Positions 21,312-64,000 are shown, counted from the first letter of the stretch. The stretch is DNA of 64,000 nucleotides from an uncultured bacterium (GCA_903873475.1 CAIQON010000108.1:1064-65063); one strand, 5' to 3'. Numbers and translations are program-made. The notes: generated by a model from the sequence alone, not told the origin.

Positions 21312-21339
21312 TCCAGGCTGGTTCGGCGAACAGTGCAAC

Positions 21340-21358: not shown

Positions 21359-21365
21359 TGGCGGC

Positions 21366-21974: not shown

Positions 21975-22007
21975 AGTCCTGCTCCAGGGTGGTTGTTGGA
22001 AACGGGT

Positions 22008-44606: not shown

Positions 44607-44817
44607 TACCGAGGGCAATGATAGTACCGGGACGAGAAAGCGTCCGGGCGATCGACCGCAGTATGCTGCTTCGGGTCGATCTACCCTGCGCTGCGTGCAG
44701 TCGTACTTGACGCCGCCCGAACGTCTGTCCCACCATCGCCCACAGGATCCAGACACACACCGGAGCTTCAGCCTGATGCGCCATGTCACTTTGCATCCAG
44801 AGGGCATCCTCAGCCGG

Positions 44818-45774: not shown

Positions 45775-45801
45775 GCGAGCGGCCGTCGCGCTGGCCTCCG
45801 A

Positions 45802-46269: not shown

Positions 46270-46279
46270 CGGAATCTCC

Positions 46280-47422: not shown

Positions 47423-47430
47423 GTCGTTCC

Positions 47431-48897: not shown

Positions 48898-48911
48898 CGG
48901 GGGCTCCAGCC

Positions 48912-50294
<1,383 letters not shown>

Positions 50295-50316
50295 GGTCAG
50301 GGCTTCGGCCTGATCA

Positions 50317-50853: not shown

Positions 50854-50880
50854 GCGATTGCTCCTGGAGTTCGGTTCATG

Positions 50881-51573: not shown

Positions 51574-52274
51574 GAATGGCCTCCCGGTTTTGGCAGCTTG
51601 ATCAGTTCGGGGTGGCGTTCGACCTGTACGACATGGTCGACGAAGATGCCGGGGGTGTGCACGTGTTCGGGATGGATCTCGCCTGCCGGCACGATGCGAT
51701 CGACTTCCGCGATCACCGTATCGCAGGCCGTGGCCATCACCATGTTGAAGTTGCGCATCGTGCCGCGATACATCAGGTTGCCGAAGCGGTCGCCGAGGTG
51801 GCCCTTGAGCAGCGCGAAGTCCGCGCGCAGCGCCTTCGCGAACAGATACTCGCGCCCGTCGATCTCGCGCACTTCGCCGCCCTCCGCGAGTTCGGTGCCC
51901 ACGCCGGTCGGGGTGTAGAAGCCGCCCAGGCCGCAGCCGCCGCAACGGATGCGCTCCACCAGCGTCCCCTGCGGCACGAGTTCGAGTGCGACCTCGCCCT
52001 TGAGGTAGCGCTCACGGAACTGCGCAGCCGACGGCGCGGGAAAAGAGGCGATCAGCTTGCGCGCGAGCCCGTCGCCAAACAGCGATCCGAGCGCGAACGG
52101 GCCGGTACCGGCGCCATTGCTCACGATGGTGAGATCGCGCGCACCGTGTTCGCGCAGGGCCTCGATCAGTTGCCCGGGCATGCCGGCATTGCCGAAGCCG
52201 CCGAACATGATCGTCGCGCCGTCGAACACCTTCTCTACGGCCTCCCTGCACGTGGAGAGCGTCTTGTCGATCAA
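51570..52274 (-). CDS. 3-oxoacid CoA-transferase subunit A
   Basis: ...DGATIMFGGFGNAGMPGQLIEAL...LTIVSNGAG...ELVPQGTLVERIR.... TTG start at 52274 preceded by GGAGGA (no in-frame ATG near the conserved N-terminus). Confidence 0.85.
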   Translation of the reverse strand: MIDKTLSTCREAVEKVFDGATIMFGGFGNAGMPGQLIEALREHGARDLTIVSNGAGTGPFALGSLFGDGLARKLIASFPAPSAAQFRERYLKGEVALELVPQGTLVERIRCGGCGLGGFYTPTGVGTELAEGGEVREIDGREYLFAKALRADFALLKGHLGDRFGNLMYRGTMRNFNMVMATACDTVIAEVDRIVPAGEIHPEHVHTPGIFVDHVVQVERHPELIKLPKPGGHS

Positions 52275-52317
52275 CCCTGTCCTCCGATCCCGGTGGTGTT
52301 GCGCTGGCGGAACATGC

Positions 52318-52347
52318 TTGACAAGAACCGCGCGCGATGCCGAATAT
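52318..52347 (+). promoter_or_regulatory. Candidate sigma70-type promoter in the divergent intergenic region
   Basis: TTGACA (52318-52323), 18-nt spacer, GAATAT (52342-52347), about 150 nt upstream of the Bug ATG at 52496. Pattern match only. Confidence 0.25.
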
Positions 52348-52495
52348 GCCACCGACCGCGTGCTGCATTCGTGCCGATTGCTGCCGAAGCCCGAGTTTGC
52401 CATCTTCGGGCCATCGGGTGATTGCCTCGCGGGAAATTCGTGATCACAGCAGGTTGCGTCTCCGCCGCCGCATGCAGGTCCATCCGAGGGCTACC

Positions 52496-53540
52496 ATGAA
52501 CATCGATCGCACCGGTTCAATCGTTCCCAGCCATCCAGGCCGGGCCCGGGACGGGTTCCCGCAGCGCACGCTCGCCCTGGCAGCCAGCCTCGCGACCGGC
52601 CTGGCGCTGACCATGGCTGCACCGGACGGCATCGCCCAGGGCGCAGCCGCATACCCGGTGAAGCCAGTCACGCTGATCCTCCCCTACGCACCGGGCGGCA
52701 CCATCGACATCCAGGGACGCCTGCTCGCATCCGGCCTCAGCGCCCGCCTCGGCCAATCCTTCATCGCCCGCAACATGCCGGGTGCCACCGGCGCGATCGC
52801 GACCGAGTACGTGGCGCGATCGGCACCGGACGGCTATACGCTGCTGTTCGGCTCGTCCGCACAGACCACCAGCGTGCCGATGACCGACAAGGTCAACTAC
52901 CGACTGGAGGATCTGGTGCCGGTCAGCGCGTCTGGCCGGGGCGCGATGGTACTCGCCATCAGCTCGCAACTGCCGTCGAAGACGCTCAAGGAGTTCATCG
53001 AACACGCGCGCGCGGTGCCGGGCAAGCTCAACTACGGCTCCCCGGGCGAAGGCTCCGTCGGCCACCTGGTTGCTGCGCTGTTCGTCGCGCGCGCAGGACT
53101 CAGCGTCGTGCACGTGCCGTACAAGGGCGGTGGTCCGGCGATGGCCGACCTGCTGGGCGGCCAGATTCCCATGCTCTTCGGAAACTCCGGCGAAGTCATG
53201 GCGAACGCCAAGAGCGACCGTATCCGCATCATCGCGGTGTCGACCGCTCAGCGCATGCGGCAACTGCCCAACATCCCGACCGTCGCCGAGTTCCTGCCGG
53301 GTTTCGAGATGACCGCATGGCAGGGGTACGCTCGCACCGGCGCGCACGCCGCGCGCGATCGTGGAAACGCTGTCGAACGCCATCCAGGCGCTGTCGAAGG
53401 AACCGGCCGTGATCGAACGCCTGGAACAGTTCGGAGTCGAATCGACCACGACCACGCCCGAACAGATGGCGGCGATCATCCGCGCCGAGCAACCGGTGTA
53501 CGCGGAAGCCGTGAAAGCGGCCGGCCTGGGCGGCCGCTGA
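52496..53540 (+). pseudogene. Bug/TctC-family gene with a +1 frame change at 53324-53330 (G4 run)
   Basis: The frame gives ...AYPVKPVTLILPYAPGGTID...FEMTAWQG, then junk. The +1 frame continues with TLAPARTPRAIVETLSNAIQALSKEPAVIERLEQFGVESTTTTPEQMAAIIRAEQPVYAEAVKAAGLGGR and stops at 53538-53540. Confidence 0.7.
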
Positions 53541-53597
53541 TGCCGCGTGTCGGCGGCTGCGAAGGGATGGAGGCGCTGCTTCGGCTGCTGCCAGCCG

Positions 53598-53634: not shown

Positions 53635-54246
53635 TCAAGCGCGAGCCGAAAGCGCCTTCACCACCTGCCGGGCCACGACCTCCGGGCCGGCGAGCCCGTC
53701 CACCACGATATCGGCGCCGGGCCGGACCCTTTCCCGCTGCACCCGAAGCAGCGCCTCCACGCCTTCCAGATAGTTCGCCAGGTACTCGCGCAGCCACGGT
53801 GCCAACGACGCCGGTGGCCCGTCGAATGTCGCCACCAGCTGCCGAACCTTGCGTGCGAGCGCGATATCGAGCGGTGTGTCGATCCATACCAGGGTGTCGA
53901 TGTACCGACCGGACTCGGCGTGCCATCGGCCGAAGGGCGTCTCGAAGATCACGTGTTGGCGCGGCGCGAGCTGCGCTCCCGTGAGCGGGTCCTGCACGGC
54001 ATGGCCCGCCTTCAGTCGGGCCAGCGCCTGCGAAAGTCCAGGCACGCGCAGCCGCTCGGGATCGGCGCCCGACAGCATCCAGTCGCAGGCCTCGGCAAGC
54101 GGCCGCTCGGTCATCTCCTCGAAGTGATCGAACGCGAGTACGTCGCGCTCGCCGAGCGCCTGCGCCAGCGCCTGCACCAGCGTGGACTTTCCGCCGCCCA
54201 CACCCGAGGCAACCGCGATCACCCGACGCGCTGCAATGTCACTCAC
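53635..54246 (-). CDS. P-loop kinase (uridine kinase/PRK-like NTPase)
   Basis: Walker A VIAVASGVGGGKST and later ...DTLVWIDTPLDIALARKV.... GTG at 54246 overlaps the upstream stop by 8 nt; the upstream part of the track ORF is Arg/Ser-rich and unlikely to be coding. Confidence 0.6.
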   Translation of the reverse strand: MSDIAARRVIAVASGVGGGKSTLVQALAQALGERDVLAFDHFEEMTERPLAEACDWMLSGADPERLRVPGLSQALARLKAGHAVQDPLTGAQLAPRQHVIFETPFGRWHAESGRYIDTLVWIDTPLDIALARKVRQLVATFDGPPASLAPWLREYLANYLEGVEALLRVQRERVRPGADIVVDGLAGPEVVARQVVKALSARA

Positions 54247-55033
54247 GTGCGGCACCGGCGCCGTCGAGGTAGAACGTCGCGAACGCCGCCCCACTTCGGC
54301 TGCGACCGCCCGAGACATGCCCGAGGCAGGCCTCCCGTGCCCCGCCGTAGAAACCGTCGAATGCGGCCGGCGGCACGCGGAAGTACGACAGGAGCCCCCG
54401 CAACTGCGGCTCGACATCGCGCAGATGGAGACCGGACGGATGGACGTTGAGGTCGAAGGACGCGCGCGGGTTGCCGTCCTCGCAGACCTCGAGATACATC
54501 AGCGGCTCCGGGCTGCGCGCCGCAGCCAGCGCCGCCACATCCATCAACAGGGCCGCCCCGCGCGCGTCGCAGAGTCGGCCGATGCGTTCCCCTATCGCTG
54601 CGGCGTTCACGCCGGGCAGATAGCGATAGCGCGCAATGGCCTGGCGACCGGGATCCGCCGGAGACCACTTCCACGCCAGATGCAGCAGGACCGGGCCGGT
54701 CGCCAAGTCGATGCGCCTCGCATACTCCAGATAGACCTTGAACAGCAGGCCATCGGGGCCTGCCTCGTAACCGAAGTGCACGATATCGGCCTGCAGCGCA
54801 TGCCGCTCGAACGCCGTACGTTCGGCATCCGGGAACCCGATCGCCCGAAAGACAGCACTCAACCAGGCGGTATCGACGACCGCCAGGGAAATCCCCGCCA
54901 GCAGACGCTCGCCGATCAGTTGGCCGGGCGCCAGCTTGAAGGATCGCTCCACTCCCTGCAGCGGCGCCGCGCGCAGGAACTCGATCAGCGGCGCGGTGCC
55001 GACCGGAACTACCGCTGGAAGCGTACCGTGCAC
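54239..55033 (-). CDS. Hypothetical protein (264 aa), repeated beta-hairpin-like segments
   Basis: Good GC3 coding signal. Recurrent strand-turn-strand-like segments (IVHFGYEAGPDGLLFKVYLEY; VLLHLAWKWSPADPGRQAIARYRYL; LMYLEVCEDGNPRASFDLNVH; LGHVSGGRSRSGAAFATFYLDG). I recognised no family. The GTG start overlaps the upstream gene by 25 nt. Confidence 0.5.
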   Translation of the reverse strand: MHGTLPAVVPVGTAPLIEFLRAAPLQGVERSFKLAPGQLIGERLLAGISLAVVDTAWLSAVFRAIGFPDAERTAFERHALQADIVHFGYEAGPDGLLFKVYLEYARRIDLATGPVLLHLAWKWSPADPGRQAIARYRYLPGVNAAAIGERIGRLCDARGAALLMDVAALAAARSPEPLMYLEVCEDGNPRASFDLNVHPSGLHLRDVEPQLRGLLSYFRVPPAAFDGFYGGAREACLGHVSGGRSRSGAAFATFYLDGAGAARE

Positions 55034-55821
55034 TTGATTCCAGCGGGGATGCGTCCTTCGGAATTCGCCAGATGCAGGCGCACGCCGAACGTGCCGCTGG
55101 CCGCGTCGACCACCCTGTCCACGACCACCACGTTCGCGCGATAGCTGCCCGGCAACTGCGAGCCGAACCGTACGTCGCCGGACATCCCCACCCGGATCCG
55201 CCCGAGCAGTTCCACCGGCGCAATCACCTCGACGTTGAGCGGGTCGATCCGCGCGATCTTGACGATCCTGCCATCACCCACGCGCTCGCCCGGCGCGAGC
55301 ATGCGCTCCACCACCACGCCGTTCACGGGGCTGCGGATGGTCCTCTGCTCGAGCACCTGGCGCTGCTGTGCGAGTTCGAGGCCGGCGAGGCGCATCTGGG
55401 TCTCGAGCTCATCCCTTTCGCTGGCGGAAATGAGCTGATTCTTGAACAGTTCCTCGCTGCGCTCCACCCTGCGCCTGGCGAACTCCTCCTGTGCGGTCTT
55501 GAGCCGGACGCTGGCCTCTTCAACCTTCGAGTGAAGCCGCGCGATCTCCTGGCCCTGGGTGACCACGCTGCCCCGCTCGACCAGCACCTCGTGCAGCGTA
55601 CCCTCCACCGGGCTGCCCAGGCTGGTGATCAGGCTGGGCTCGACCATGCACTCCATGGCATCGCCCAGCTGGCGACCGGTGTTCCCGCTCAGCGCAGGGA
55701 GCCGTGCCGGGAGTGCCGGCGCCTCGAGTCGCAGGGGCATGCCGCCCGGCGGCGGCGTCTGCGCGAACGCTGCGCCAACCGACAGCGCAACGATCAGCAG
55801 ATACGGAAGGGGTTGGACCAT
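55009..55821 (-). CDS. Short secreted membrane-fusion protein (HlyD/RND-adaptor-like)
   Basis: Signal peptide MVQPLPYLLIVALSVGAAFA. Lipoyl-like hairpin ...GTLHEVLVERGSVVTQGQEIARL..., coiled coil, ...IRSPVNGVVVERML.PGE... and a beta-barrel tail. ATG at 55821 after GGAG. Confidence 0.7.
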   Translation of the reverse strand: MVQPLPYLLIVALSVGAAFAQTPPPGGMPLRLEAPALPARLPALSGNTGRQLGDAMECMVEPSLITSLGSPVEGTLHEVLVERGSVVTQGQEIARLHSKVEEASVRLKTAQEEFARRRVERSEELFKNQLISASERDELETQMRLAGLELAQQRQVLEQRTIRSPVNGVVVERMLAPGERVGDGRIVKIARIDPLNVEVIAPVELLGRIRVGMSGDVRFGSQLPGSYRANVVVVDRVVDAASGTFGVRLHLANSEGRIPAGIKCTVRFQR

Positions 55822-55859
55822 GCTGGATACTCCACGAAAAGAGGCCGTGCCCGGACTGA

Positions 55860-57851
55860 TCATTCCGGCTGGCCGGTAAAGGACAGGATTGTCTTCGCCT
55901 GCCGGTCCGCCTGCAGCAACTGGCGGCGCACCTTCGAGTGCATGCCCTCCGTGCGCCGCTGGGCGAAGCGGATCCAGGCTCGCCGCAGCAGCTGCCCGAC
56001 ATCCGAGCGTTCGGGCACGCACCGGACCAGCCATTCCACGGGCCCGCCACGATAGGGTTCCAACAGTGGATCCTCCATCGACAGCACAGCCTCGAAATGA
56101 CCGGCGTCTCCCTGGCGCGAGCAGCGCCCCGCCAGCTGCCGGTCGATGCGACCCGCCTCGTGGCGCTCCGAGAGGATGATATGCAGCCCGCCGCTGTCGC
56201 CCACCCCCGGCGCAAGCTTGATGTCCGTACCCCGCCCCGCCATGTTCGTGGCTATGGTAATGCAGCCCGGCTCTCCCGCGCGGGCGACGATCGCCGCCTC
56301 CTCTTCATCCTGCTTCGCGTTGAGTACCTGGTGGGCGAGGCCCCTCTCGGCGAGCAGCGCACTGGCCCGCTCAGAAGACGCCACCGAGCGCGTTCCGAGC
56401 AGCACCGGCACACGGCTGGCATGCAGTACGGCGACCCGCTCCGCGATCTGGCGCCACTTCGCATCCTCGGTCTCGAGGACACGATCGGCACGCCGGACCC
56501 GCCTGCTCGGGCGATGCGTGGGCACGCGTACGACCGGCAGGTTGTAGACCGATCCGAGTTCGCCGGCCACCTCCGCCGCGGTGCCCGTCATTCCGCCCAG
56601 GTGAAGGTAGCGGCGGAAGAAGCGCTGGTAACTGATGCGTGCCAGGGATTCCTTGCGCGGCGTGATCTCCACGCCCTCCTTGGACTCGATCAGCTGGTGC
56701 AGCCCCTGGCTCCAGGACCGATCGGCCATGACCCGACCGGTGTGCTCGTCGACGACCTGGATCTTGCCCTCCCGGATCACGTAATGATCGTCCAGCAGGA
56801 ACAGATGCAGCGCAGAGAGCGCTTGCCTGACCAGTTCCTCGCGCCTCAGCGCGCCAGCCCATACGCCACCCATCGCCTTGCACAGGTCGATCACCCGTCC
56901 GTGTCCCGCTTCGGTAAGGGCGATCCGACGCTCGGACTTGAGGATGACGAAATGCTCGCCAGGGGAGAGCTGGCGCGCGATCCCGAGCGCCTGAGTCGCG
57001 ACGAGCGCCTCATCGGCGGCGGGAACCTCCGCTGAAATGATCAGCGGCGTGCGCGCCTCGTCGACCAGCACGCTGTCGGCTTCGTCGACGATGGCGAAGT
57101 GCAGTCCCTGCAACAGCAGCTTGCGGCGCCTCGCATGCTCGCCATAGGCCTTGTCGAGCTGCAGGTGAAGCGGATAGCCTCCCTTGGCCAGCATGAGCCG
57201 GTCGCGCAGGTAGTCGAACACCAGCGTCTTGTTGCTGCAGTAGACGACGTCGTGCGCGTACGCGGCGCGGCGCGCGTCGGGGTTCATCTCGATCGTCACG
57301 TATGCAACCCGGATACCCAGCACCTCGTAGAGCGGGCGCAGTGTCTTGAAATCGCGCTCGACCAGGTAATCGTTCACCGTGATGACATGGACCGGGATGC
57401 CCGCCAGGGCAGCGGTGCAGGCAGCCAGCGTGGCCGTCAGGGTCTTGCCCTCGCCGGTCTGCATCTCGGCCACCATGCCGTTGAGCATGATCCAGGCGCC
57501 CCTGAGCTGGACGTCGAAATGACGCATGCCGAGCGTCTGATCTGCCGCCTCCCGTACCAGGGCGAACGCACATGCGGCAAGCGCCTCGGTGAGACCCTCC
57601 CGCCGCAGGCGCAACCGGAGCTCACGCGCCTCGGCCGCCAACTGGACCGGATCGTGGTGACGATAGCGGTCACCCACTGCGGCGACCTTCGCAACGATAC
57701 GGTTCCCGCCTGCTGCGCGCGCACGCAGCGCCCGCAGGACACGGCCGGTAGCCGCCTTTCCGGTACGGTCGAGCCAGGTCTCGTCGGTCGCATCAGGCCG
57801 CTCCGGATAGACGTCGTCGAGCAGCGGTGCAGGGATCACGAGGCGCGCCAT
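55860..57851 (-). CDS. SecA-like ATPase, truncated (663 aa; motor domains only)
   Basis: GMRHFDVQL, Walker A MQTGEGKT (57441-57461), VHVITVNDYLVERD, DEADSVLVDEARTPLIIS, GGMTGTA, TNMAGRGTDIKL, GGLHIILSERHEAGRIDRQLAGRCSRQGDAG. The sequence ends about 70 aa after NBD2. Confidence 0.85.
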   Translation of the reverse strand: MARLVIPAPLLDDVYPERPDATDETWLDRTGKAATGRVLRALRARAAGGNRIVAKVAAVGDRYRHHDPVQLAAEARELRLRLRREGLTEALAACAFALVREAADQTLGMRHFDVQLRGAWIMLNGMVAEMQTGEGKTLTATLAACTAALAGIPVHVITVNDYLVERDFKTLRPLYEVLGIRVAYVTIEMNPDARRAAYAHDVVYCSNKTLVFDYLRDRLMLAKGGYPLHLQLDKAYGEHARRRKLLLQGLHFAIVDEADSVLVDEARTPLIISAEVPAADEALVATQALGIARQLSPGEHFVILKSERRIALTEAGHGRVIDLCKAMGGVWAGALRREELVRQALSALHLFLLDDHYVIREGKIQVVDEHTGRVMADRSWSQGLHQLIESKEGVEITPRKESLARISYQRFFRRYLHLGGMTGTAAEVAGELGSVYNLPVVRVPTHRPSRRVRRADRVLETEDAKWRQIAERVAVLHASRVPVLLGTRSVASSERASALLAERGLAHQVLNAKQDEEEAAIVARAGEPGCITIATNMAGRGTDIKLAPGVGDSGGLHIILSERHEAGRIDRQLAGRCSRQGDAGHFEAVLSMEDPLLEPYRGGPVEWLVRCVPERSDVGQLLRRAWIRFAQRRTEGMHSKVRRQLLQADRQAKTILSFTGQPE

Positions 57852-57860
57852 CGGATTCGC

Positions 57861-60011
57861 TCAGACGTTGAATTGCTTGAGGAACGCGCGCCTTAACGCT
57901 CGATACCACTGGGTCGCCAGCGGCTCCGGCAGGTGTTCGAACCGCACATGGATCCGACCGCCCAGGTAATTGGTCTGCTCGCCCCGCGGCAGTTCCAGGT
58001 CGAGCACGAACAGTTTCTCGAGTGCGCGTCCATCGTCGCCCTTCGTCGGGTCCAGCCCGATCTTGCCACCGCCCTGGAGACTCAGTGCGAGGCTGGGTAG
58101 CTCGTTGGTCGCAGCAGGGACCTCGCGCGCGATGCGCGCTTCGAACGGCTGGCCGATCCGCTCCACCGGACGGATCTCCACTCGCCGGGTACGCGTGGCG
58201 ACCTGCGCGCCTTCCGCCGCCGACACCACGACACGTACGGTCTTCGCCGTGCGATCGACCACGTGGGCAAGCAACTCGCCGCGCTGGACGTACCGGCCCG
58301 GCAGGTTGTCCGGATCCTGCATCACGAAAACACCGCTGGTTGGCGCGCGGATGAGCAGTTCCGCCTGCCGGCGGCGCGCCTGCCTGAGTGCTTCGCGCAC
58401 GTGCTCGCGCTGCTCGTCGATCAGTTCCACCTGCACCCGATTGCTCACGCGCGCCAGCTGATGACGCGCATCCAGTTCCGCGAGTTGCGCCTGCAGAACG
58501 CGGGTACGGGCTTCCAATTCCGGATCATGGCACTCGATCAGTGGCTGTCCTGCGACGACCGGTTGCTCCGGCTTCACCAGGACACGTCCGACCACGCCGT
58601 CGATCGCGGCGCGCACATGCGCCTGCTCCGGAGCCCAGATCACCCCTTCCGCGCGTGTCGATGAAGGCGCGGGCACCCATGCCACGATGCCCACGATGCC
58701 TGCCAGCATCACGCCGGTGACGAACAGCGCTCGCGGGCGCTTGCCGGCGATCCGGGGGTTGAAGAAAAGATAGTGGATCTTCTTGCCGATCGGGATGACC
58801 AGCATGCTTGCGACCGCCCAGAGCGCGAGCACGACCCCGATAAAGAAGAACTGCGTTGCGACCAGCACGGCGATCGAAACCATCATGCCGATGCGGTAGA
58901 AGAAGGAAAGCACCGCATAGCCGGCGAGCCAGCCTCGCTCGGCGTCCGTCTCCGCAGGCGATGCGTCCCCCTGCACGCCGAACAGGTAGCGGCGAACAAG
59001 GTAGCCGAGATAGTCGTTGGCACGCTGGCCGAGGTTGGGCGATTCGATCCAGTCGGCCAGGATGTAATAGCCGTCGAACCGCAGCAGCGGGTTCGCGTTG
59101 AACAGGATCGTGGTGATGCCCGCGATCAGGATGATGTTATAGATGACCGCCCGGGTAAATCCGGGTTCGAGATTGATCCAGACGAACACCGCCAGCGATG
59201 CGAGGAACAGCTCCACCAGCATGCCTGCCGCGCCCACGAGCATTCGACTCCGCTTGTCGCGGAAGGCCGTGGCAGCCGAGGCATCGACGTACGGGATGGG
59301 GACCAGCACCAGCAGCATGACGCCCATCTCGTGCACTTCCCCACCGCCCGCCTTGATGGCCACCGCATGGCCCAGTTCGTGCAGCAGCTTGATCAGCGGG
59401 AAGACGACCCAGGCGAGCAGCAGGTTCTCCAGGGTGAACACGCGATCGACGACATCGCTAGACAGTTCCTTCCAGTGCATTCCCACCAGGATCGCCGCGC
59501 TGGTCGCAACCGCGAGCCAGAGCAGGGCTCCAGGCCAGCCCATGAGCGGCCGCAGGAACGGCATCGCCCGGTCCAGGAACCGGTCCGGATCAACCAGCGG
59601 GAACCGGATCGACAGCGGATTGCCGACGTACTGCTTGAGCTTCGTGCGCCGGTGCCGCAGCCGGCGCTCCTCGCGTTCCCGCGCATCCGGAGACGCGTCG
59701 CCCTGCAGCGCATCGGCTGCGTGCAGGTCGGACATCAGCTTGATGACCTCGTCCTGCGACGGCGCCGCCTCACCGAGCCGGGCGCAGGCGATGTTCCAGA
59801 TGTCCTGGAGCGTACGCTGGCCATCCATCAGCCCGATGACCAGGTTGGCGACCGGCGTGAACCGATGGAACTTGCCGGTCGAGTGATTCTGCATCACGTA
59901 CCACACCGCCTGGCGATAGACATGACGGTGGATCTGCGCATGACTGCGCAACCGCGGCCTGAGCGTCGCCACGCGATACCAGGAATCGCTGAACAGGGAT
60001 ATCGACTGCAT
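57861..60011 (-). CDS. Three-part fusion: PqqD/RRE-like N-domain, M50 (site-2 protease-like) membrane metalloprotease, C-terminal HlyD-like domain
   Basis: HELGH at 59367-59381 and NANPLLRFDGYY (the second S2P motif) within multiple hydrophobic spans. N-terminal ...WYVMQNHSTGKFHRFTPVANLVIGLMDGQRTLQDIWNIA...QDEVIKLMSDLHAADAL is PqqD-like. The C-terminus carries ...IDGVVGRVLVKPEQPVVAGQPLIE... plus coiled-coil HlyD features. Confidence 0.8.
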   Translation of the reverse strand: MQSISLFSDSWYRVATLRPRLRSHAQIHRHVYRQAVWYVMQNHSTGKFHRFTPVANLVIGLMDGQRTLQDIWNIACARLGEAAPSQDEVIKLMSDLHAADALQGDASPDAREREERRLRHRRTKLKQYVGNPLSIRFPLVDPDRFLDRAMPFLRPLMGWPGALLWLAVATSAAILVGMHWKELSSDVVDRVFTLENLLLAWVVFPLIKLLHELGHAVAIKAGGGEVHEMGVMLLVLVPIPYVDASAATAFRDKRSRMLVGAAGMLVELFLASLAVFVWINLEPGFTRAVIYNIILIAGITTILFNANPLLRFDGYYILADWIESPNLGQRANDYLGYLVRRYLFGVQGDASPAETDAERGWLAGYAVLSFFYRIGMMVSIAVLVATQFFFIGVVLALWAVASMLVIPIGKKIHYLFFNPRIAGKRPRALFVTGVMLAGIVGIVAWVPAPSSTRAEGVIWAPEQAHVRAAIDGVVGRVLVKPEQPVVAGQPLIECHDPELEARTRVLQAQLAELDARHQLARVSNRVQVELIDEQREHVREALRQARRRQAELLIRAPTSGVFVMQDPDNLPGRYVQRGELLAHVVDRTAKTVRVVVSAAEGAQVATRTRRVEIRPVERIGQPFEARIAREVPAATNELPSLALSLQGGGKIGLDPTKGDDGRALEKLFVLDLELPRGEQTNYLGGRIHVRFEHLPEPLATQWYRALRRAFLKQFNV

Positions 60012-60024
60012 GGCTATGCGCGCT

Positions 60025-61866
60025 TCACGCCCAGGACCACACGGCCAGACGCAGCCAGTCGAAGAACCGGTGGGTGATCATCCAGAACAGGCTGCGCCGT
60101 CCTGCCTCGATCTTCGCCACGCCCTCCATCCCGGGTCGCAGCCGATCGGAACGCTGCTCGAGCAGCGCCTCCACGCGGAAATAGCTCCGGCCTTCCCGCG
60201 AGGTCACCACGGGCGTCACGGTGCTGATGACAAACGGATACACCTCCCCGGGCAGCGAGCTGAGCAGCAACCGTCCCTTCTGCCCGGCACGCACATTGCC
60301 GATCGCGGTCTCCGGCACTTCGAGCACGACGCGGTAGCCGTCGAGCGGCGACACCTCGAAAAGCACCTGGCCGCGCTTGACCGCCGCGCCGAGCGACTGG
60401 TGCAGGTCGCCGCTGACCACGACGCCGTGGAATGGCGAGACGATATGCGTGCGCTGCAGTTGCTCCGCGAGCAGGCTGACCTGCGCCTCGGCTTGCTGTA
60501 CCTGCGCGAGGATGATGCTGGCCAGCGCGCGGTCATACTTGGCAACCGCCTCCTGGTACTGGCGCGTGTATTGAGTGCGCTGGCTCTGCCATTTGTAGTA
60601 TTCGAGCCGCAGGTCCCGCTGATCCAGCGTCGCGAGCACGTTGCCCGCTTTCACGACGTCCCCCGCGCGATGCGTCGCAGTTGCCACGTAGCCATCGATC
60701 GGTGCGATGAGCACGCGGCGCACCGAGCCCTCGAGGGATGCCTGCGCGCCTACCCGGTGGTTGCCGGTTGCCAGGCTGAAGAACACGACCAGTGCGATCA
60801 GCGAAAGGGCCACGAGCTTGCGTCCGAAATACTTCGGCCCGATGAGCTTCGTGAGTTGCTCTCGGGAAGCGTCCCGGAAACGGCTCAGGAAGTGTCTGTC
60901 GTTGAGGCGTTTGGCCTCGAGGATGCGGCTGGTCAGCGCCACCGTCGCCTGGCAGAGCTCGATGGTGGACGCATCGAACGGTCGACTGGCGGGACGCTCG
61001 AGGGTGAAGGCCCCACCGCGTCGCTCGTCCGGCTGGAACGGAATCGTGAGGATGCTGCCGCTGCCGAACTGGCGGGCAAGCGCATCGTGGTCGCGCGTGA
61101 CCAGCGGCGCGCCCGTACCTGCAGGCACGACGATGATCGATCTCTGGTCCAGTGCCTCATCCATCGCCATTCCGATGGCGCGGGTAAGGTTCATCCTCTG
61201 GCCGAATTCCGCGCTGTGCGAGACCGCGGCAACGTCCACATGGCCATTCTTCTGGAACCCGATGCTGACCCGGTCGCAATCGAGCCGTACTGCCAGGTCC
61301 GTCGCGAGCGCGTTCGCCGCCGCCGGGAAACGCTCCTCCGCGAGCGAGGTGGCCAGCAGGTCCAGCGTACTCATCAGCCTTTCGCGCGTCGCCTGTTCTT
61401 CCTCCGACTGAGCGGCTCGCAGCGATGCTTCGATCGCGTAAAGCGCCCAGGACAAGCGCGGCACGAGCGCCTGCACCGCGGCCGCCTCCCGAGGCTCGAA
61501 CTCGACGGCCACGAGACCGTGCAACTGGCCATCGATCATCAGCGGACAACTCACGCATGCGCCGTCCGGACGGGACGATACGATGCTGCGGCGTCCTTCG
61601 AGCGTACGCGTGGCGACATCGGCCAGCAGCTCGCTCGGCCCCTGGCCCGCCGGCCAGAACGCCGCGGGCGAGAACGGGCCTGCGTCAGGGGCGCCCAGGA
61701 GCAGTACCGCGCGCCGAGCCTCGGGCAGCGAGGCACAGCACGACGCGAGCCAGTCGCGCTGGAACGCTTCGGGACTGGCGCCGGGTGCCGTGGCCTGCAT
61801 CCCGGTCGCGGTGCTCGCGGTGACGGTCTCGGTCATGGCACGCGGACCGCCCGGCTCAACGGTCAA
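60025..61866 (-). CDS. Cytoplasmic GAF-like region, single TM span, periplasmic HlyD-type membrane-fusion domain
   Basis: TM span LVALSLIALVVFFSLA. Downstream ...IDGYVATATHRAGDVVKAGNVLATLD..., coiled coil, ...IVSPFHGVV... (HlyD). The ~330-aa N-terminal part has two GAF-like blocks (...PLMIDGQLHGLVAVEF...; ...SILTIPFQPDERRGGAFTLER...). TTG start overlaps the upstream stop (TTGA); alternative ATG at 61836. Confidence 0.7.
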   Translation of the reverse strand: MTVEPGGPRAMTETVTASTATGMQATAPGASPEAFQRDWLASCCASLPEARRAVLLLGAPDAGPFSPAAFWPAGQGPSELLADVATRTLEGRRSIVSSRPDGACVSCPLMIDGQLHGLVAVEFEPREAAAVQALVPRLSWALYAIEASLRAAQSEEEQATRERLMSTLDLLATSLAEERFPAAANALATDLAVRLDCDRVSIGFQKNGHVDVAAVSHSAEFGQRMNLTRAIGMAMDEALDQRSIIVVPAGTGAPLVTRDHDALARQFGSGSILTIPFQPDERRGGAFTLERPASRPFDASTIELCQATVALTSRILEAKRLNDRHFLSRFRDASREQLTKLIGPKYFGRKLVALSLIALVVFFSLATGNHRVGAQASLEGSVRRVLIAPIDGYVATATHRAGDVVKAGNVLATLDQRDLRLEYYKWQSQRTQYTRQYQEAVAKYDRALASIILAQVQQAEAQVSLLAEQLQRTHIVSPFHGVVVSGDLHQSLGAAVKRGQVLFEVSPLDGYRVVLEVPETAIGNVRAGQKGRLLLSSLPGEVYPFVISTVTPVVTSREGRSYFRVEALLEQRSDRLRPGMEGVAKIEAGRRSLFWMITHRFFDWLRLAVWSWA

Positions 61867-62213
61867 GCATCCGTCTTCAATTCACCGAAACGGGACTCAT
61901 ACTCCTTGAGTACCCGCTCCAGGAGAACGCCGAGGCGCTTGGCCGCATGGGGATTGAGTACGATCCGGTCGGACAGCATGACCTTGACTTCTTTCTGACC
62001 TGCGTGCCACGCCTGATTCGCCCCGAACAGCAGAGTGATTTCCTCGCGCGATCCAAGGACATTGCAGACGTTGGAATAGGAGGTCTCCATTCGCGAATCG
62101 TCCCAGATGATTCGCTGAGGATCGCCGCTGCGCGTATTCGTGTCCGGGGTATTGTCTTCGCCGCTCGCTGAGACACTCGCTGAGGGAGTCCTGCTCATCG
62201 CGATTCCTGTCAT
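61863..62213 (-). CDS. Small DUF3467-like protein
   Basis: ...ETSYSNVCNVLGSREEITLLFG... resembles the YxN..v..t.eEf.LdFG core I recall for DUF3467. Visibly more A/T-rich than its surroundings. Start ATG at 62213 or 62198. Confidence 0.5.
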   Translation of the reverse strand: MTGIAMSRTPSASVSASGEDNTPDTNTRSGDPQRIIWDDSRMETSYSNVCNVLGSREEITLLFGANQAWHAGQKEVKVMLSDRIVLNPHAAKRLGVLLERVLKEYESRFGELKTDA

Positions 62214-62347
62214 CGATAGGGTTGGTCTGATGGCACCGCGCGTGCAGAGCCAGGTAGCACTGTCTTATATCCTAATCCCACCGGTCGATCGCGCCCGCGG
62301 AACGGGCGACAGCGGCGCGAACAGCGGCAGTCTCGATCTGCGTGGCG

Positions 62348-64000
62348 TCAGCCCGCACGCGGGTCTTTGGCCCAGTCGATGCGCGGGGAGGCCTGCAGCG
62401 CGTGCCGGATGTCCACGGTATCGACGGTGACCGGCAAGCCTCTGGTTCCGTCCATCCAATGGCCCGCGGTCGATTCGATGGCGCCCGGCGCAAGCCCGGG
62501 CGCAGCCATCCCGGGACGGACTTGCCGACGGCGCTCCAGCATGACACGGCCGTCAGCCGTGAACCAGACACCCTTGCTGCCCGCGCCAAGCACTTGCGCT
62601 CCCAACAGCCCGGCGAGCGCGAGTTCATGCGACTGCTCATCCCGCACCGGAGCCACCTCTCGCCCGACGCTCGACCAGTCGACACGCACGGCCGGGCCGG
62701 ATTCCGGCAGTGAACGCAAGAAGGCTGCAATCTCGGCGGATTCTGTCAGTGCCGCGGCGTCGGCTGGCGACGGGCTGCCAGCTGCCTCGCCGGCCGGTTG
62801 CTGCACGCCCCCCTCGGGTGGCACCCCGCCCGGCGGCGACGACGACGGCGACGGCGGCGGAGTCGTGGGTGCCTGGTCCGGTCCCATGGTGGACGCGGCC
62901 GGAGGCGCACTGTCCGCGCCGAACCGTGGCGCATCGGAGAACTGGAAGCCGAGGATCGTGGGCATCACCGCCGTCGATGACCCGTCAGTCGCATACAGGC
63001 GGCGCGTATCGCTCGCCGCGTCTCCGATCAGGATGTCGGCCGGTCGAGAGACGTTGGGCATTTCCCGGACGATGTTCTCGACGCGCTCGATGAACTCATC
63101 TTCGTTCGAATCCGCGGGCAGGTCGGCACCCGCCCCGTGGAAACGGATCACCTGCTCCACGCGGCTATCGGGCTTGAAGTACACCACCAGATAGTCGCCG
63201 GCCATGATGTCGAAATCCAGGTTCCCGTACAGCAGGTCGTCGTCAGGACCGCCGATGACCACGTTGTAGCCACCGCCCCCCGACACGACATCCTGAGAGC
63301 CGATGGTCATGTCGATGGACTCGACCTGGGACGGACGCGCACCGGTCGGGAAGTAGAACACACGGCCGCTGTCGCCGATGACCAGGTCATCATCGCCTTC
63401 GCCCCAGAGACGATCGCTTTCGTAGCCACCGATCAGGATGTCGTTGCCGTCGCCTGCGAACACCACGTCGCGGCCGCCCAGTCGCGGGAAGGACGACGAG
63501 ACGAGCTGCGGGTCTCCGGACACGCCATTGAAGGTCGCAAACGCATTGTCACCGACGATCACGTCGCGCCCTGCACCGGTGACGACCGAATCGTCGCCCA
63601 TGCCACCGAAGACGAGCGAATCGCCGCCGGCGGCGCTGATACGATCGTCTCCGCCGTACCCGATCTCGGTGGTCTCCACGAACTGGAGGATGCCCGACCC
63701 GCTGTAGTCGAGGAAGCCGTTGTCGGCCAGCACGACGTGCGTTCCCGTGCCCAGGCGCACCTCGTCGCTTCCGATACCGGCGACGACGGTCTTCGAGCCA
63801 TCGCCCGCGACGATGATGTCGTCACCACCCTCGAGCCTCACCGTGCTGGTGATGGCATCGAGGAAGCGGCCAGTCGGATCCCGCAGGATGATGCCGTTGT
63901 CGCCGAGGATCACATCGGATCCGCTGGAGGTCGTGACGCGATCGGCACCCATGCCCGTGGCGATCAGGTTTTCACCGTTCCCGGCGAAAACGATGTCATC
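62348..64000 (-). CDS. Large repeat protein, RTX/Ca-binding-like Gly-Asp repeats, Pro-rich linker and C-terminal domain; 5' end outside window
   Basis: The frame is open to nt 64000 (...DDIVFAGNGENLIATG precedes the track Met). Many degenerate G-x-G-x-D/GDD-I-x-G units (GGDDIIVAGDGSKTVVAGIGSDEV..., GGMGDDSVVTGAGRDVIVGDN..., GDGNDILIGGYESDRLWGEGDDDLVIGD...). PTTPPPSPSSSPPGGVPPEGG linker, then a ~170-aa non-repeat tail. Confidence 0.7.
   Translation of the reverse strand, partial: DDIVFAGNGENLIATGMGADRVTTSSGSDVILGDNGIILRDPTGRFLDAITSTVRLEGGDDIIVAGDGSKTVVAGIGSDEVRLGTGTHVVLADNGFLDYSGSGILQFVETTEIGYGGDDRISAAGGDSLVFGGMGDDSVVTGAGRDVIVGDNAFATFNGVSGDPQLVSSSFPRLGGRDVVFAGDGNDILIGGYESDRLWGEGDDDLVIGDSGRVFYFPTGARPSQVESIDMTIGSQDVVSGGGGYNVVIGGPDDDLLYGNLDFDIMAGDYLVVYFKPDSRVEQVIRFHGAGADLPADSNEDEFIERVENIVREMPNVSRPADILIGDAASDTRRLYATDGSSTAVMPTILGFQFSDAPRFGADSAPPAASTMGPDQAPTTPPPSPSSSPPGGVPPEGGVQQPAGEAAGSPSPADAAALTESAEIAAFLRSLPESGPAVRVDWSSVGREVAPVRDEQSHELALAGLLGAQVLGAGSKGVWFTADGRVMLERRRQVRPGMAAPGLAPGAIESTAGHWMDGTRGLPVTVDTVDIRHALQASPRIDWAKDPRAG

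What the first reader, a model, noticed from the sequence alone, without database searches (positions are those of the whole stretch)
53635..64000. Candidate undescribed export/processing system: truncated SecA-like motor, RRE-M50-HlyD fusion, GAF-HlyD fusion, short MFP, DUF3467-like protein and adjacent RTX-like repeat protein
Eight co-directional minus-strand genes are packed with tiny gaps or overlaps: TTGA overlap at 61863-61866, 13-nt gap at 60012-60024, 9-nt gap at 57852-57860, 38-nt gap at 55822-55859, 25-nt overlap at 55009-55033, and 8-nt overlap at 54239-54246. That spacing argues for one operon. The order is RTX-like repeat protein, DUF3467-like, GAF-TM-HlyD, PqqD/RRE-like-M50-HlyD, SecA-like ATPase lacking the C-terminal translocation elements, secreted short MFP, unknown 264 aa, P-loop kinase. 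There are three separate membrane-fusion modules but no ABC transporter, RND pump, TolC-like or SecY/E/G gene in the visible part. Described MFP-dependent systems (T1SS, tripartite efflux) are energised by ABC, RND or MFS partners, not by a Sec-type DEAD motor. SecA homologues, in turn, are normally tied to SecYEG. Hypothesis (inference): a dedicated envelope-spanning machine in which a SecA-derived ATPase powers export through MFP-fusion scaffolds, with an S2P-like protease processing cargo. The cargo could be the adjacent repeat protein or a peptide recognised by the RRE-like domain.
Basis: partly seen in the sequence, partly recalled or inferred. Interest (0 to 1): 0.9.

Follow-up and report, generated by a model that had tools for sequence, protein, structure and literature searches.

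The report
SecA-like, HlyD-based giant-protein export module
This is a real, widely conserved operon that pairs a shortened SecA-type ATPase with three membrane-fusion proteins and a membrane protease next to a giant repeat protein; its core was described by computer analysis in 2015, but its function has never been tested.

Summary
The eight minus-strand genes exist as described, and nearly all domain calls hold. The order DUF3467 / GAF-HlyD / RRE-like-M50-HlyD / truncated SecA-like is almost invariant in 80 loci from at least eight phyla. The SecA-like gene follows the M50-HlyD gene in 67 of 69 loci.

It is not undescribed. Kamneva, Poudel and Ward (PLoS One 2015, PMC4452313) reported the same four-gene core and the same idea, that a SecA_DEAD ATPase replaces the type I ABC transporter. 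I found no experimental follow-up.

New here:
- The adjacent RTX-like gene is the 3' end of a giant protein (9,292 and 15,258 aa in relatives).
- These proteins carry a conserved C-terminal tail found only on genes beside the module.
- The "unknown 264 aa" protein has an ABBA prenyltransferase fold. In other genomes it is fused to DUF3467 or to a tryptophan halogenase.
- Tailoring genes recur around the core: kinase, radical SAM, O-methyltransferase, SapC.
- One locus has a TolC-like gene inside the operon.

Best reading: a dedicated envelope-spanning exporter and processor for the giant protein, without an ABC transporter or SecY. This is inferred, not shown. A type I system at the unseen ends of the giant gene is not excluded.

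The parts
62348..64000 (-). g8: C-terminal 550 aa of an RTX-like beta-roll repeat protein, cut by the window end. The last ~100 aa (about 62351-62650) form a conserved C-terminal tail (LALAGLLGAQ ... GAIESTAGHWMDG ... IDWAK).
   Evidence: HemolysinCabind 5.9e-15. The ORF is open to base 64000. Orthologous genes encode 15,258 aa (L005) and 9,292 aa (L006). The upstream ORF runs off the 10-kb flank in most loci. An HMM of the tail hits only ORFs directly upstream of DUF3467.
61863..62213 (-). g7: small cytoplasmic DUF3467 protein (116 aa), proposed adaptor or chaperone for the cargo.
   Evidence: PF11950 1e-22, 80 bits against a cut-off of 25. Present upstream of GAF-HlyD in 53 of 64 loci. Naturally fused to the g2-type protein in L060, L064, L070, P0140 and P0141. 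Fold unresolved: pLDDT 64.5 and no significant Foldseek hit.
60025..61866 (-). g6: GAF - one TM helix - HlyD membrane-fusion protein. Alternative start at ATG 61836.
   Evidence: GAF 1.4e-8, HlyD_3 8e-20, HlyD_D23 3e-16. Single hydrophobic segment at residues 351-369. Directly upstream of g5 in 68 of 71 loci. Start codons shown.
57861..60011 (-). g5: N-terminal RRE/PqqD-like domain - polytopic M50-like HExxH metalloprotease domain (~7-8 hydrophobic segments) - C-terminal HlyD membrane-fusion domain.
   Evidence: NF041824 daptide intramembrane metalloprotease 3e-43 (148 bits, below its 300-bit cut-off). PqqD 7e-4, HlyD_D23 7e-9. HExxH kept in 80 of 80 homologues. A profile of the N-terminal domain hits only PqqD in the PDB, E 0.12-0.9. 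TM scan. The family has 4,445 representatives at E<=1e-30; the 150 best listed are almost all ~715 aa.
55860..57851 (-). g4: truncated SecA-like ATPase (NBD1-PPXD-NBD2 plus the start of the scaffold helix). It lacks the wing domain, two-helix finger and C-terminal linker.
   Evidence: SecA_DEAD 9e-98, SecA_PP_bind 5e-24, P-loop_SecA 2e-49. Below every NCBIfam SecA/SecA2 cut-off. Aligns to B. subtilis SecA 14-601 only. GEGKT, DExD and GRGTD motifs kept in 60 of 62 homologues; 61 of 62 are 645-708 aa, and one called ORF is 1,013 aa. Hundreds of ~660-aa homologues.
55009..55821 (-). g3: secreted (signal-peptide) periplasmic membrane-fusion protein, 270 aa.
   Evidence: HlyD_D23 5e-18, TIGR01730 RND_mfp 3e-31. 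N-terminal MVQPLPYLLIVALSVGAAFA|Q. A 270-277 aa gene sits at the same position in relatives. The ORF cluster is present in 45 of 80 loci.
54239..55033 (-). g2: compact ABBA (PT-barrel) aromatic prenyltransferase-fold protein, 264 aa.
   Evidence: No Pfam or NCBIfam hit. AlphaFold2 pLDDT 93.8 with five (beta-beta-alpha-alpha) repeats. The top 50 Foldseek PDB hits are all indole or peptide prenyltransferases, e.g. 6zrx E 2.4e-7, PriB 5inj TMq 0.62, LimF, PatF, DciF. One weak profile hit to a LynF/TruF/PatF enzyme, E 0.48. Fused to a Trp halogenase in L085 and to DUF3467 elsewhere.
53635..54246 (-). g1: P-loop nucleoside/nucleotide-kinase-like protein, 203 aa. Last gene of the operon.
   Evidence: NF006085 4.9e-26 (below cut-off) and PRK family 6e-3. 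Uridine kinase 3w8r E 5e-5. Found by tblastn in ~31 loci, including the inverted arrangement in Alphaproteobacteria. Collinearity with the relative L002 ends 47 nt after its stop.

Best explanation
The locus is a member of the conserved 'secondary SecA_DEAD / type-I-like' module of Kamneva et al. 2015. I read it as a dedicated envelope-spanning export and processing machine for the giant RTX-like repeat protein encoded next to it.

Shown here:
- The gene set, the domain content and the loss of the SecY-interacting parts of SecA.
- Conserved ATPase and HExxH motifs.
- Near-invariant gene order across phyla.
- Adjacency to giant repeat proteins that carry a module-specific C-terminal tail. In the alphaproteobacterial arrangement they also have a conserved basic N-terminus with no hydrophobic signal peptide.
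- A TolC-family gene inside one operon.
- An ABBA prenyltransferase-fold protein and other tailoring enzymes in the neighbourhood.

Inferred mechanism:
1. The unfolded giant protein is recognised in the cytoplasm through its terminal signal by DUF3467 and by the RRE-like domain of the M50-HlyD protein.
2. It may be modified by the prenyltransferase-like enzyme, the kinase and, in other genomes, radical SAM, methyltransferase or halogenase enzymes.
3. The SecA-like ATPase docks on the cytoplasmic GAF and RRE domains and pushes the chain through a conduit built from the polytopic M50-like domain.
4. The two membrane-anchored membrane-fusion proteins and the soluble one form a tunnel to a TolC-like outer-membrane duct encoded elsewhere.
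5. The HExxH protease removes the signal tail, and Ca2+-driven folding of the beta-roll repeats outside the cell completes export.
For: - Domain calls.
- SecA truncation.
- Motif conservation (HExxH 80 of 80; Walker A, DExD and motif VI 60 of 62).
- Synteny in 80 loci from Beta-, Gamma- and Alphaproteobacteria, Desulfobacterota, Acidobacteriota, Planctomycetota, Rokubacteria, Methylomirabilia and Latescibacterota.
- Cargo of 15,258 and 9,292 aa directly upstream. Upstream ORF open beyond the 10-kb flank in most loci.
- C-terminal tail HMMs hit 31 + 11 ORFs. All lie immediately upstream of DUF3467, or of a DUF3467-g2 fusion.
- All 12 metagenome loci found through the cargo N-terminus carry SapC directly upstream of the cargo, usually preceded by radical SAM and the prenyltransferase-like gene. 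Where sequence allows, the cargo ORF stays open for >3,100 aa (five loci >3,400 aa). None has an ABC signature. Two show the divergent DUF3467-GAF-M50 core.
- OEP/TolC-like gene between M50-HlyD and SecA-like in L080 (E 6e-55).
- Signal peptide on g3, one TM helix in g6, polytopic g5.
- The same core and hypothesis were reached independently in PMC4452313.
- Truncated SecA domains are embedded in giant Omnitrophota and actinobacterial proteins (bioRxiv 10.1101/2023.11.21.568195).
Against: - There is no experimental evidence of any kind.
- No recognisable protein-conducting channel is present. A pore role for the M50-like domain is speculation.
- The 5' flank of the giant gene in the window's own (betaproteobacterial) arrangement, and the 3' flank in the alphaproteobacterial one, were never seen. 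A classical ABC/OMF pair could therefore sit there.
- Six Sulfuritalea-type loci do have an ABC exporter right after the kinase gene.
- In M. extorquens AM1 most module genes were reported as not or only weakly expressed in exponential growth.
- The tailoring enzymes and the RRE-like protease resemble a peptide natural-product cluster more than a secretion system.
- The RRE assignment is weak (E 7e-4; PDB E 0.12).
Confidence: 0.5

Rival explanations
1. This is a peptide natural-product (RiPP-like) maturation and export cluster. The real product would be a small modified peptide, for example the Trp-containing C-terminal tail released by the RRE-M50 protease, or an unannotated precursor. It would be prenylated, halogenated or methylated by the tailoring enzymes and pumped out through the HlyD proteins. 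On this view the giant protein is only a carrier, or is unrelated.
For: - g5 is most similar to the daptide and YydH/LiaK RiPP intramembrane proteases and has a PqqD/RRE-like N-terminus.
- g2 has the fold of indole and cyanobactin peptide prenyltransferases.
- Radical SAM, O-methyltransferase, WelO5-like and Trp-halogenase genes recur around the core.
- DUF3467 is fused to the prenyltransferase-like enzyme in the way an RRE is fused to RiPP enzymes.
- The tails contain conserved Trp residues.
Against: - No short precursor gene was found.
- A SecA-type polypeptide motor with a preprotein cross-linking domain has no known role in RiPP export.
- The strongest conserved neighbour is a giant repeat protein.
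- g5 scores below the NCBIfam cut-offs (148 against 300 bits).
- The tailoring set varies between clades, whereas the four-gene core does not.
Confidence: 0.2
2. The giant RTX-like protein is exported by an ordinary type I system (ABC-MFP-TolC) encoded elsewhere or at the unseen end of the gene. The operon would then be an accessory envelope complex for regulation, quality control or release of the adhesin. That role would combine regulated intramembrane proteolysis by the S2P-like protease with GAF-domain sensing, in analogy to LapD/LapG control of LapA.
For: - RTX repeats near the C-terminus are typical of type I substrates.
- SapC, known from the Campylobacter fetus sapCDEF type I S-layer locus (my own knowledge), sits directly before the cargo gene in the alphaproteobacterial arrangement.
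- An ABC exporter follows the operon in six loci.
- The GAF domain suggests signalling, and GGDEF-EAL genes neighbour five Herminiimonas-type loci.
- The flanks of the giant gene are only partly visible.
Against: - No ABC signature occurs within 10 kb in about 72 of 80 genome loci or in any of 14 further loci.
- In the alphaproteobacterial arrangement the 10 kb upstream of the cargo start holds only module genes.
- A regulatory complex would not obviously need three membrane-fusion proteins, a TolC gene inside the operon and a polypeptide-translocating ATPase.
Confidence: 0.2
3. This is a tripartite efflux pump for a small molecule, for example a prenylated or halogenated indole made by the neighbouring enzymes. 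The SecA-like protein would have an unrelated or regulatory role.
For: - The HlyD/RND_mfp-type adaptors are those of efflux pumps.
- The GAF domain could bind a small ligand.
- The tailoring enzymes resemble indole-alkaloid chemistry.
Against: - There is no RND, MFS or ABC pump protein.
- The conserved preprotein-binding domain in g4 points to a polypeptide substrate.
- So does the module-specific tail on the neighbouring giant proteins.
Confidence: 0.05

Closest known systems
Secondary SecA_DEAD / type-I-related conserved module (Kamneva, Poudel & Ward, PLoS One 2015, PMC4452313)
   Same: Same four core proteins in the same order: GAF-HlyD, M50-like-HlyD, SecA_DEAD lacking the wing/scaffold, and an HlyD/biotin-lipoyl MFP. 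The Methylobacterium/Methylorubrum loci of that paper are homologous to loci L083-L086 retrieved here. Their S2 Table also lists SapC and a 'conserved hypothetical' at the DUF3467 position.
   Different: That paper did not identify a cargo, giant or RTX proteins, DUF3467 by name, the RRE-like domain, the relation to RiPP proteases, or the prenyltransferase-like and other tailoring genes. It was purely computational, as this analysis is.
Type I secretion systems for giant RTX adhesins (ABC transporter - HlyD-type MFP - TolC, e.g. LapA/LapBCE, SiiE)
   Same: HlyD-family adaptors, an RTX-like beta-roll giant substrate without an N-terminal Sec signal peptide, a conserved C-terminal element, and a TolC-family gene in one locus.
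   Different: There is no ABC transporter in the operon or in most relatives. Instead there is a SecA-derived ATPase, two adaptors fused to cytoplasmic and membrane domains plus a third soluble one, and an intramembrane HExxH protease.
Accessory Sec systems of Gram-positive bacteria (SecA2-SecY2-Asp, exporting large glycosylated serine-rich adhesins)
   Same: A dedicated SecA paralogue encoded with modification enzymes next to a very large repeat adhesin. This is an analogy from established knowledge.
   Different: No SecY2 or Asp proteins. The SecA paralogue here has lost the wing domain, two-helix finger and C-terminal region. The setting is a Gram-negative envelope with membrane-fusion proteins. 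g4 scores far below the NCBIfam SecA2 cut-offs.
SecA_DEAD + SecA_PP_bind domains embedded in giant Omnitrophota and actinobacterial proteins (West-Roberts et al., bioRxiv 10.1101/2023.11.21.568195)
   Same: A truncated SecA motor lacking the scaffold/wing, associated with giant proteins and proposed to help export the giant protein itself.
   Different: There the SecA-like domain is part of the giant polypeptide, and the neighbours are type II / type IV pilus genes. Here it is a separate 663-aa protein in an HlyD/M50 operon.
RiPP intramembrane HExxH (M50-type) leader peptidases (daptide protease NF041824; YydH/LiaK NF058609) and RRE/PqqD domains
   Same: The best NCBIfam match of g5 residues 19-404, a conserved HExxH motif, and a PqqD-like N-terminal domain.
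   Different: Scores are below the family cut-offs. g5 is fused to an HlyD domain. No short precursor peptide was found, and the likely substrate is a giant protein.
ABBA (PT-barrel) aromatic prenyltransferases (DMATS-type indole prenyltransferases; cyanobactin LynF/TruF/PatF, LimF)
   Same: The predicted fold of g2. g2 is fused or co-located with Trp-directed enzymes.
   Different: There is no detectable sequence-family membership. At 264 aa it is shorter than the known enzymes. Donor, acceptor and activity are unknown.

Membership tests
Kamneva-2015 secondary SecA_DEAD / type-I-related module | SecA_DEAD-domain protein that has lost the wing/scaffold domain | tested here: met
   Pfam SecA_DEAD, PP_bind and P-loop_SecA only. 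The alignment to solved SecA ends at about residue 601.
Kamneva-2015 secondary SecA_DEAD / type-I-related module | Adjacent transmembrane Peptidase_M50-like protein with an HlyD domain | tested here: met
   g5. It is adjacent to the SecA-like gene in 67 of 69 loci.
Kamneva-2015 secondary SecA_DEAD / type-I-related module | GAF-domain protein with HlyD/biotin-lipoyl domains, plus a separate HlyD/biotin-lipoyl MFP | tested here: met
   g6 and g3. Same order as MexAM1_META1p2402-2399.
Kamneva-2015 secondary SecA_DEAD / type-I-related module | The SecA_DEAD protein is a second copy, in addition to a canonical SecA in the same genome | not testable with these tools
   Only a 64-kb window is available, and it holds no canonical secA.
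Type I secretion system | Dedicated ABC transporter as the inner-membrane energiser | tested here: not met
   None in the operon or window. Absent from about 72 of 80 related loci and from 14 further loci. Present only in six Sulfuritalea-type loci. The far ends of the giant gene were not seen.
Type I secretion system | HlyD-family membrane-fusion protein | tested here: met
   Three HlyD-domain proteins.
Type I secretion system | TolC-family outer-membrane factor | tested here: inconclusive
   None in the window. One lies inside the operon of L080, and 'some' loci had one in PMC4452313. TolC is often encoded elsewhere.
Canonical SecA / SecA2 translocase ATPase | NBD1-PPXD-NBD2 motor with intact ATPase motifs | tested here: met
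Canonical SecA / SecA2 translocase ATPase | Helical scaffold, wing domain and two-helix finger that couple to SecY; score above the NCBIfam equivalog cut-offs | tested here: not met
   The protein ends in the first scaffold helix. Its score is 576 bits against a cut-off of 814 for PRK12904, and it is below every SecA2 cut-off.
RiPP intramembrane HExxH protease (daptide / YydH type) with RRE | HExxH active site in a polytopic domain | tested here: met
   HELGH motif, conserved in 80 of 80 homologues.
RiPP intramembrane HExxH protease (daptide / YydH type) with RRE | Family-level score, and an adjacent short precursor peptide | tested here: not met
   148 bits against a cut-off of 300. No short conserved precursor ORF was seen in the loci inspected.
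RiPP recognition element (PqqD-like) | Winged-helix PqqD-like domain | tested here: inconclusive
   Pfam PqqD 7e-4 at 20.3 bits against a cut-off of 23.4. The only PDB profile hits are PqqD, at E 0.12-0.9.
ABBA (PT-barrel) prenyltransferase superfamily | Ten-stranded antiparallel barrel made of five alpha-alpha-beta-beta units | tested here: met
   AlphaFold2 pLDDT 93.8. All top 50 Foldseek hits are ABBA prenyltransferases.
ABBA (PT-barrel) prenyltransferase superfamily | Prenyl-diphosphate binding and transferase activity | not testable with these tools
   Only conserved K/R/Y/E positions on the strands were noted.
DUF3467 (PF11950) | Pfam score above the gathering threshold | tested here: met
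   80.4 bits against a cut-off of 25.

The most novel reading that the evidence does not exclude
This would be a separate type of Gram-negative protein secretion system. A SecA-derived ATPase that has lost its SecY-coupling parts, an RRE-bearing intramembrane protease and three membrane-fusion proteins would export giant beta-roll proteins (up to more than 15,000 aa) through TolC, with neither an ABC transporter nor SecYEG. The substrates would be marked by a dedicated terminal sorting signal that is recognised by DUF3467 and the RRE-like domain. That signal may be prenylated or otherwise modified before the protease cleaves it.
Probability: 0.35. Interest if true: 0.9.

Novelty: new member of a known kind. 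Interest (0 to 1): 0.62.

Why it matters
If the module exports the neighbouring giant proteins, it is a secretion route outside the current numbered systems. It would show how bacteria move polypeptides of 10,000-15,000 residues across two membranes using a SecA motor uncoupled from SecY.

The module is common. The M50-HlyD protein alone has 4,445 representatives at 50% clustering. It occurs in cultivable, genetically tractable bacteria: Methylorubrum here, and Ruegeria pomeroyi, Bordetella avium and Achromobacter xylosoxidans in the 2015 table. Yet I found no experimental follow-up since 2015.

The links found here turn a ten-year-old genomic observation into specific experiments. These are the module-specific tail on the giant proteins, the DUF3467-prenyltransferase fusions, SapC directly before the cargo gene, and a TolC gene inside one operon. 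They also connect the module to the recent finding of truncated SecA domains inside giant Omnitrophota proteins.

Tried and rejected
- **DUF3467 as a SecB-like chaperone.** AlphaFold2 with only four sequences gave pLDDT 64.5. Foldseek found nothing significant (best E 0.3, PC4/Sub1-like; SecB absent). A PDB profile search found nothing. Not supported; the fold is unresolved.
- **Looking upstream of a giant gene via homologues of g8.** The search returned only 16 fragments. The apparently complete 709-aa cargo in L087 is an artefact of a scaffold N-gap inside the repeats. L088 is a frameshifted assembly.
- **Concatenated g7+g2 query.** This was meant to save a search. It retrieved g2 homologues but only one DUF3467 protein.
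- **My first tblastn query for g3 was one base out of frame** (55822 instead of 55821). The g3 counts are void. ORF clustering gives the short MFP in 45 of 80 loci.
- **Promoter and terminator scan of 52-64 kb.** Uninformative.
- **Extending the window's contig through identical proteins.** This found only short contigs or contigs that break in the repeats.
- **Early literature searches.** SecA+HlyD+M50+GAF, DUF3467+SecA and SecA-like+HlyD all returned nothing. Only the Pfam-style term 'SecA_DEAD' found the 2015 paper.
- **Simple hydropathy scan of g5.** It could not settle whether g5 has seven or eight TM helices.

Full report
**1. Observation**

The window is 68% G+C. Between 53635 and 64000 it carries eight co-directional minus-strand ORFs.
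- g7/g6 overlap as TTGA at 61863-61866. Relatives start g6 at the ATG at 61836 instead.
- Gaps of 13, 9 and 38 nt follow.
- Overlaps of 25 and 8 nt close the series.
- The 38-nt gap needs g3 to start at 55821. That start gives a signal peptide and matches the 270-aa calls in relatives.

Profile searches confirm almost every domain call:
- g4: SecA_DEAD, SecA_PP_bind and P-loop_SecA.
- g5: an HExxH intramembrane-protease region most like the daptide protease family, a weak PqqD match and HlyD.
- g6: GAF plus HlyD.
- g3: HlyD/RND_mfp.
- g7: DUF3467.
- g8: RTX nonapeptide repeats.
- g1: a P-loop kinase-like protein.

Against solved structures, g4 aligns with B. subtilis SecA residues about 14-601 and stops in the first scaffold helix. 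The wing domain, the two-helix finger that enters SecY and the C-terminal tail are therefore absent. A hydropathy scan gives a cleavable signal peptide for g3, one TM helix for g6 after a ~350-aa cytoplasmic part, and seven or eight hydrophobic segments for g5 between the N-terminal domain and the HlyD domain.

**2. Is it a system?**

Homologues of g4 are numerous, and nearly all are 645-708 aa. Three diverged neighbourhoods showed the same order.

I scanned one genome per species with an alignment of g5. It found 123 relatives, and the best 80 loci were kept. They come from Beta-, Gamma- and Alphaproteobacteria, Desulfobacterota, Acidobacteriota, Planctomycetota, Rokubacteria, Methylomirabilia and Latescibacterota. 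They include cultured Herminiimonas, Actimicrobium, Aminobacter and Methylorubrum.

Mapping the window's proteins onto these loci gave the following:
- The SecA-like gene directly follows M50-HlyD in 67 of 69 loci with room.
- GAF-HlyD directly precedes M50-HlyD in 68 of 71.
- DUF3467 precedes GAF-HlyD in 53 of 64.

Clustering all 961 called ORFs adds the short MFP in 45 loci. HExxH is kept in 80 of 80 g5 homologues. The Walker A, DExD and motif VI sequences are kept in 60 of 62 g4 homologues, so both enzymes look active. An exhaustive search places g5 in a family of 4,445 representatives at E<=1e-30, and the 150 best listed are almost all ~715 aa matched end to end.

**3. Prior art**

Several keyword searches found nothing. 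The Pfam-style term 'SecA_DEAD' retrieved Kamneva, Poudel and Ward, PLoS One 2015 (PMC4452313).

That paper reports 'secondary SecA_DEAD domain proteins' that have lost the wing/scaffold domain. [quoted passage not shown] They lie in a conserved locus with a Peptidase_M50-like/HlyD protein, a GAF/HlyD protein and an HlyD/biotin-lipoyl protein, and sometimes an OEP gene.

The authors propose that the SecA_DEAD protein supplies the ATPase in place of an ABC transporter, and that the M50-like membrane domain might form the pore. Their example operon is M. extorquens AM1 META1p2402-2399, which has the order of g6-g5-g4-g3. My loci L083-L086 are from the same genus.

Their S2 Table also lists SapC and a 'conserved hypothetical' at the DUF3467 position, but the text does not discuss either. 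The paper names no cargo, RTX protein, PqqD domain or tailoring enzyme. Only five papers in the library hold the term at all, and none is a functional follow-up. The module is thus described but uncharacterised, and the window holds a new member of it.

**4. The neighbouring repeat protein is giant and carries module-specific signals**

g8 is open to the window edge. Its orthologues encode 15,258 aa (L005) and 9,292 aa (L006). In most loci the ORF upstream of DUF3467 runs off the 10-kb flank, at more than 2,000-2,700 aa. The last 6 kb of one such gene consist of tandem ~132-146-aa units.

After a Pro/Ser/Ala-rich linker these proteins end in a conserved tail. The beta-type tail reads LAxAGLxGxQ ... 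LLDRR ... GAIExTAxxWLD ... IDWG. The delta-type reads AGLxGWG ... RRFxRWRxGRF. HMMs of the two tail types hit 31 and 11 ORFs in a six-frame search of all held sequence. Every hit is the ORF immediately upstream of DUF3467 or of a DUF3467-g2 fusion.

In Aminobacter and Devosia the giant gene is not upstream of DUF3467. Its 5' end lies at the end of a divergent operon: kinase, g2-like, an unknown ~290-aa protein, radical SAM, SapC, then cargo.

I scanned metagenomes with that N-terminus and recovered 12 loci:
- All carry SapC directly before the cargo start, usually preceded by radical SAM and the g2-like gene.
- Where the contig is long enough, the cargo ORF stays open for more than 3,100 aa, and for more than 3,400 aa in five loci.
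- Two loci show the divergent DUF3467/GAF-HlyD/M50-HlyD core.
- None has an ABC signature within 10 kb upstream.

The N-terminus reads MAFPFKSEG..GRP.S.RR...LEPRLLLNADLN. It is basic and has no hydrophobic signal-peptide core. That argues against ordinary Sec export.

**5. The 'unknown' protein and the tailoring context**

g2 has no Pfam or NCBIfam hit. With 22 sequences AlphaFold2 gives pLDDT 93.8 and five beta-beta-alpha-alpha units. All 50 best Foldseek matches in the PDB are ABBA prenyltransferases: DMATS-type indole enzymes and the cyanobactin-type peptide enzymes LimF, PatF and DciF. The only profile hit in PDB sequences is a LynF/TruF/PatF enzyme at E 0.48.

The g2 domain is naturally fused to DUF3467 in L060, L064, L070, P0140 and P0141. 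In Methylorubrum it is fused to a tryptophan halogenase.

Genes that recur around the core:
- the kinase g1 (~31 loci);
- a ~300-aa radical SAM and an unknown ~290-aa protein (19 sequences each, same set);
- an O-methyltransferase (16 loci);
- WelO5-like oxygenases and B12-radical SAM enzymes (6 loci each);
- SapC.

The window's clade has only g1 and g2.

The fusions suggest that DUF3467 presents a substrate to the prenyltransferase-like enzyme, much as RRE domains do in RiPP pathways. The conserved Trp residues in the tails are candidate acceptors. Both points are inference.

**6. Outer membrane and energy source**

There is no ABC, RND, MFS, SecY or TolC gene in the window. Six Sulfuritalea-type loci carry an ABC exporter right after the kinase gene. 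One Latescibacterota locus (L080) has a TolC-family gene (PF02321, 6e-55) between M50-HlyD and the SecA-like gene. That agrees with the OEP genes noted in 2015, and it supports an adaptor-to-TolC architecture.

**7. Interpretation**

The most economical reading is a dedicated export and processing machine for the neighbouring giant protein. The proposed steps are:
1. Cytoplasmic recognition of a terminal signal by DUF3467 and the RRE-like domain.
2. Optional modification of the protein.
3. Threading by the SecA-like motor through a conduit that involves the M50-like domain.
4. Passage through a tunnel of three adaptors to TolC.
5. Cleavage of the signal by the HExxH protease.

Only the parts list, its conservation and its linkage to the giant proteins are shown. 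Every mechanistic step is inferred.

The rivals are a RiPP-like peptide pathway, an accessory or regulatory complex for a substrate exported by a classical type I system, and a small-molecule pump. The second cannot be dismissed, because the far flanks of the giant genes were never visible.

A useful parallel comes from West-Roberts et al. (bioRxiv 10.1101/2023.11.21.568195). They report truncated SecA domains inside giant Omnitrophota and actinobacterial proteins and propose a role in exporting the giant protein itself.

**8. Verdict**

- The claim of an undescribed system is not upheld.
- The module remains functionally unknown and widespread, and it is now tied to specific, testable cargo and modification hypotheses.

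Noticed in passing
window 44645-53587: The close relative contig L002 (95-96% nt identity) is collinear with the window from 64000 to 53588 and then jumps to 44644. So about 8.9 kb directly downstream of the operon is an insertion or deletion difference between close relatives. It holds a thiolase-like gene (46280-47434), a PYC_OADA/HMGL-like carboxylase (47431-49278) and several unannotated ORFs.
   Followed up: partly
L060:4345-5469, L064:17474-18688, L070:1397-2521; P0140, P0141: Natural fusion proteins with DUF3467 at the N-terminus and the g2-type prenyltransferase-fold domain at the C-terminus. In L060 and L070 they lie directly after an ORF that carries the delta-type cargo tail.
   Followed up: yes
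L085:3198-5618 (Methylorubrum aminovorans): An 806-aa protein combines a flavin-dependent tryptophan halogenase (PF04820, 4e-92) with a C-terminal g2-like domain. This probably explains why JGI names some stand-alone g2 homologues 'tryptophan halogenase'.
   Followed up: partly
L080:12155-16937 (Latescibacterota chromosome OZ252100): Three genes are inserted between M50-HlyD and the SecA-like gene: an unknown 561-aa protein, an Ig-like/invasin-D3 protein and a TolC-family OEP protein.
   Followed up: partly
L011, L013, L014, L016, L017, L024 (Sulfuritalea-type loci), e.g. L016:11469-13256: A 595-aa ABC exporter (ABC_membrane + ABC_tran) sits directly after the kinase gene in this clade only. 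It is absent from the window.
   Followed up: partly
L062:1027-1794 (-), L037:8009-8785, L089-L100: A SapC-family gene (PF07277) lies immediately before the start of the giant cargo gene in the alphaproteobacterial arrangement and in all 12 metagenome loci. A 2026 preprint also reports SapC next to the giant genes of Chlorobium chlorochromatii.
   Followed up: partly
L062:1-933 (-), L065:1-912 (-), L089-L100 match starts: The cargo N-termini share a conserved basic segment ending in LEPRLLLNADLN and have no hydrophobic signal peptide. I could not assign a function to this motif.
   Followed up: partly
L062:2820-3680 (-), L025:16962-17855 and 17 other loci: A conserved ~290-aa protein with no Pfam hit always accompanies the ~300-aa radical SAM gene. 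Its strand-like aromatic motifs (ISWELYFYDY, YFMFSIDL, NFYFFFD, KSAYYG) hint at a second barrel-type enzyme. It is not present in the window.
   Followed up: no
L040:7100-7438 and 7699-8010: Two tandem DUF3467 genes precede GAF-HlyD in this Desulfobacteraceae locus. A further SecA-like match lies about 6 kb downstream, at 20613-22133.
   Followed up: no
P0065, P0093: NCBI records name some of these truncated SecA-like proteins 'prepilin peptidase'. This looks like an annotation error.
   Followed up: no
L027:19892-22138 (-) and four related Herminiimonas-type loci: A PAS-GGDEF-EAL protein recurs about 6 kb downstream of the module. This could link it to c-di-GMP control.
   Followed up: no
L087:9900-10000: A run of N (scaffold gap) inside the repeat gene makes the gene caller report a false 709-aa 'complete' cargo, plus spurious antisense genes upstream.
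   Followed up: yes
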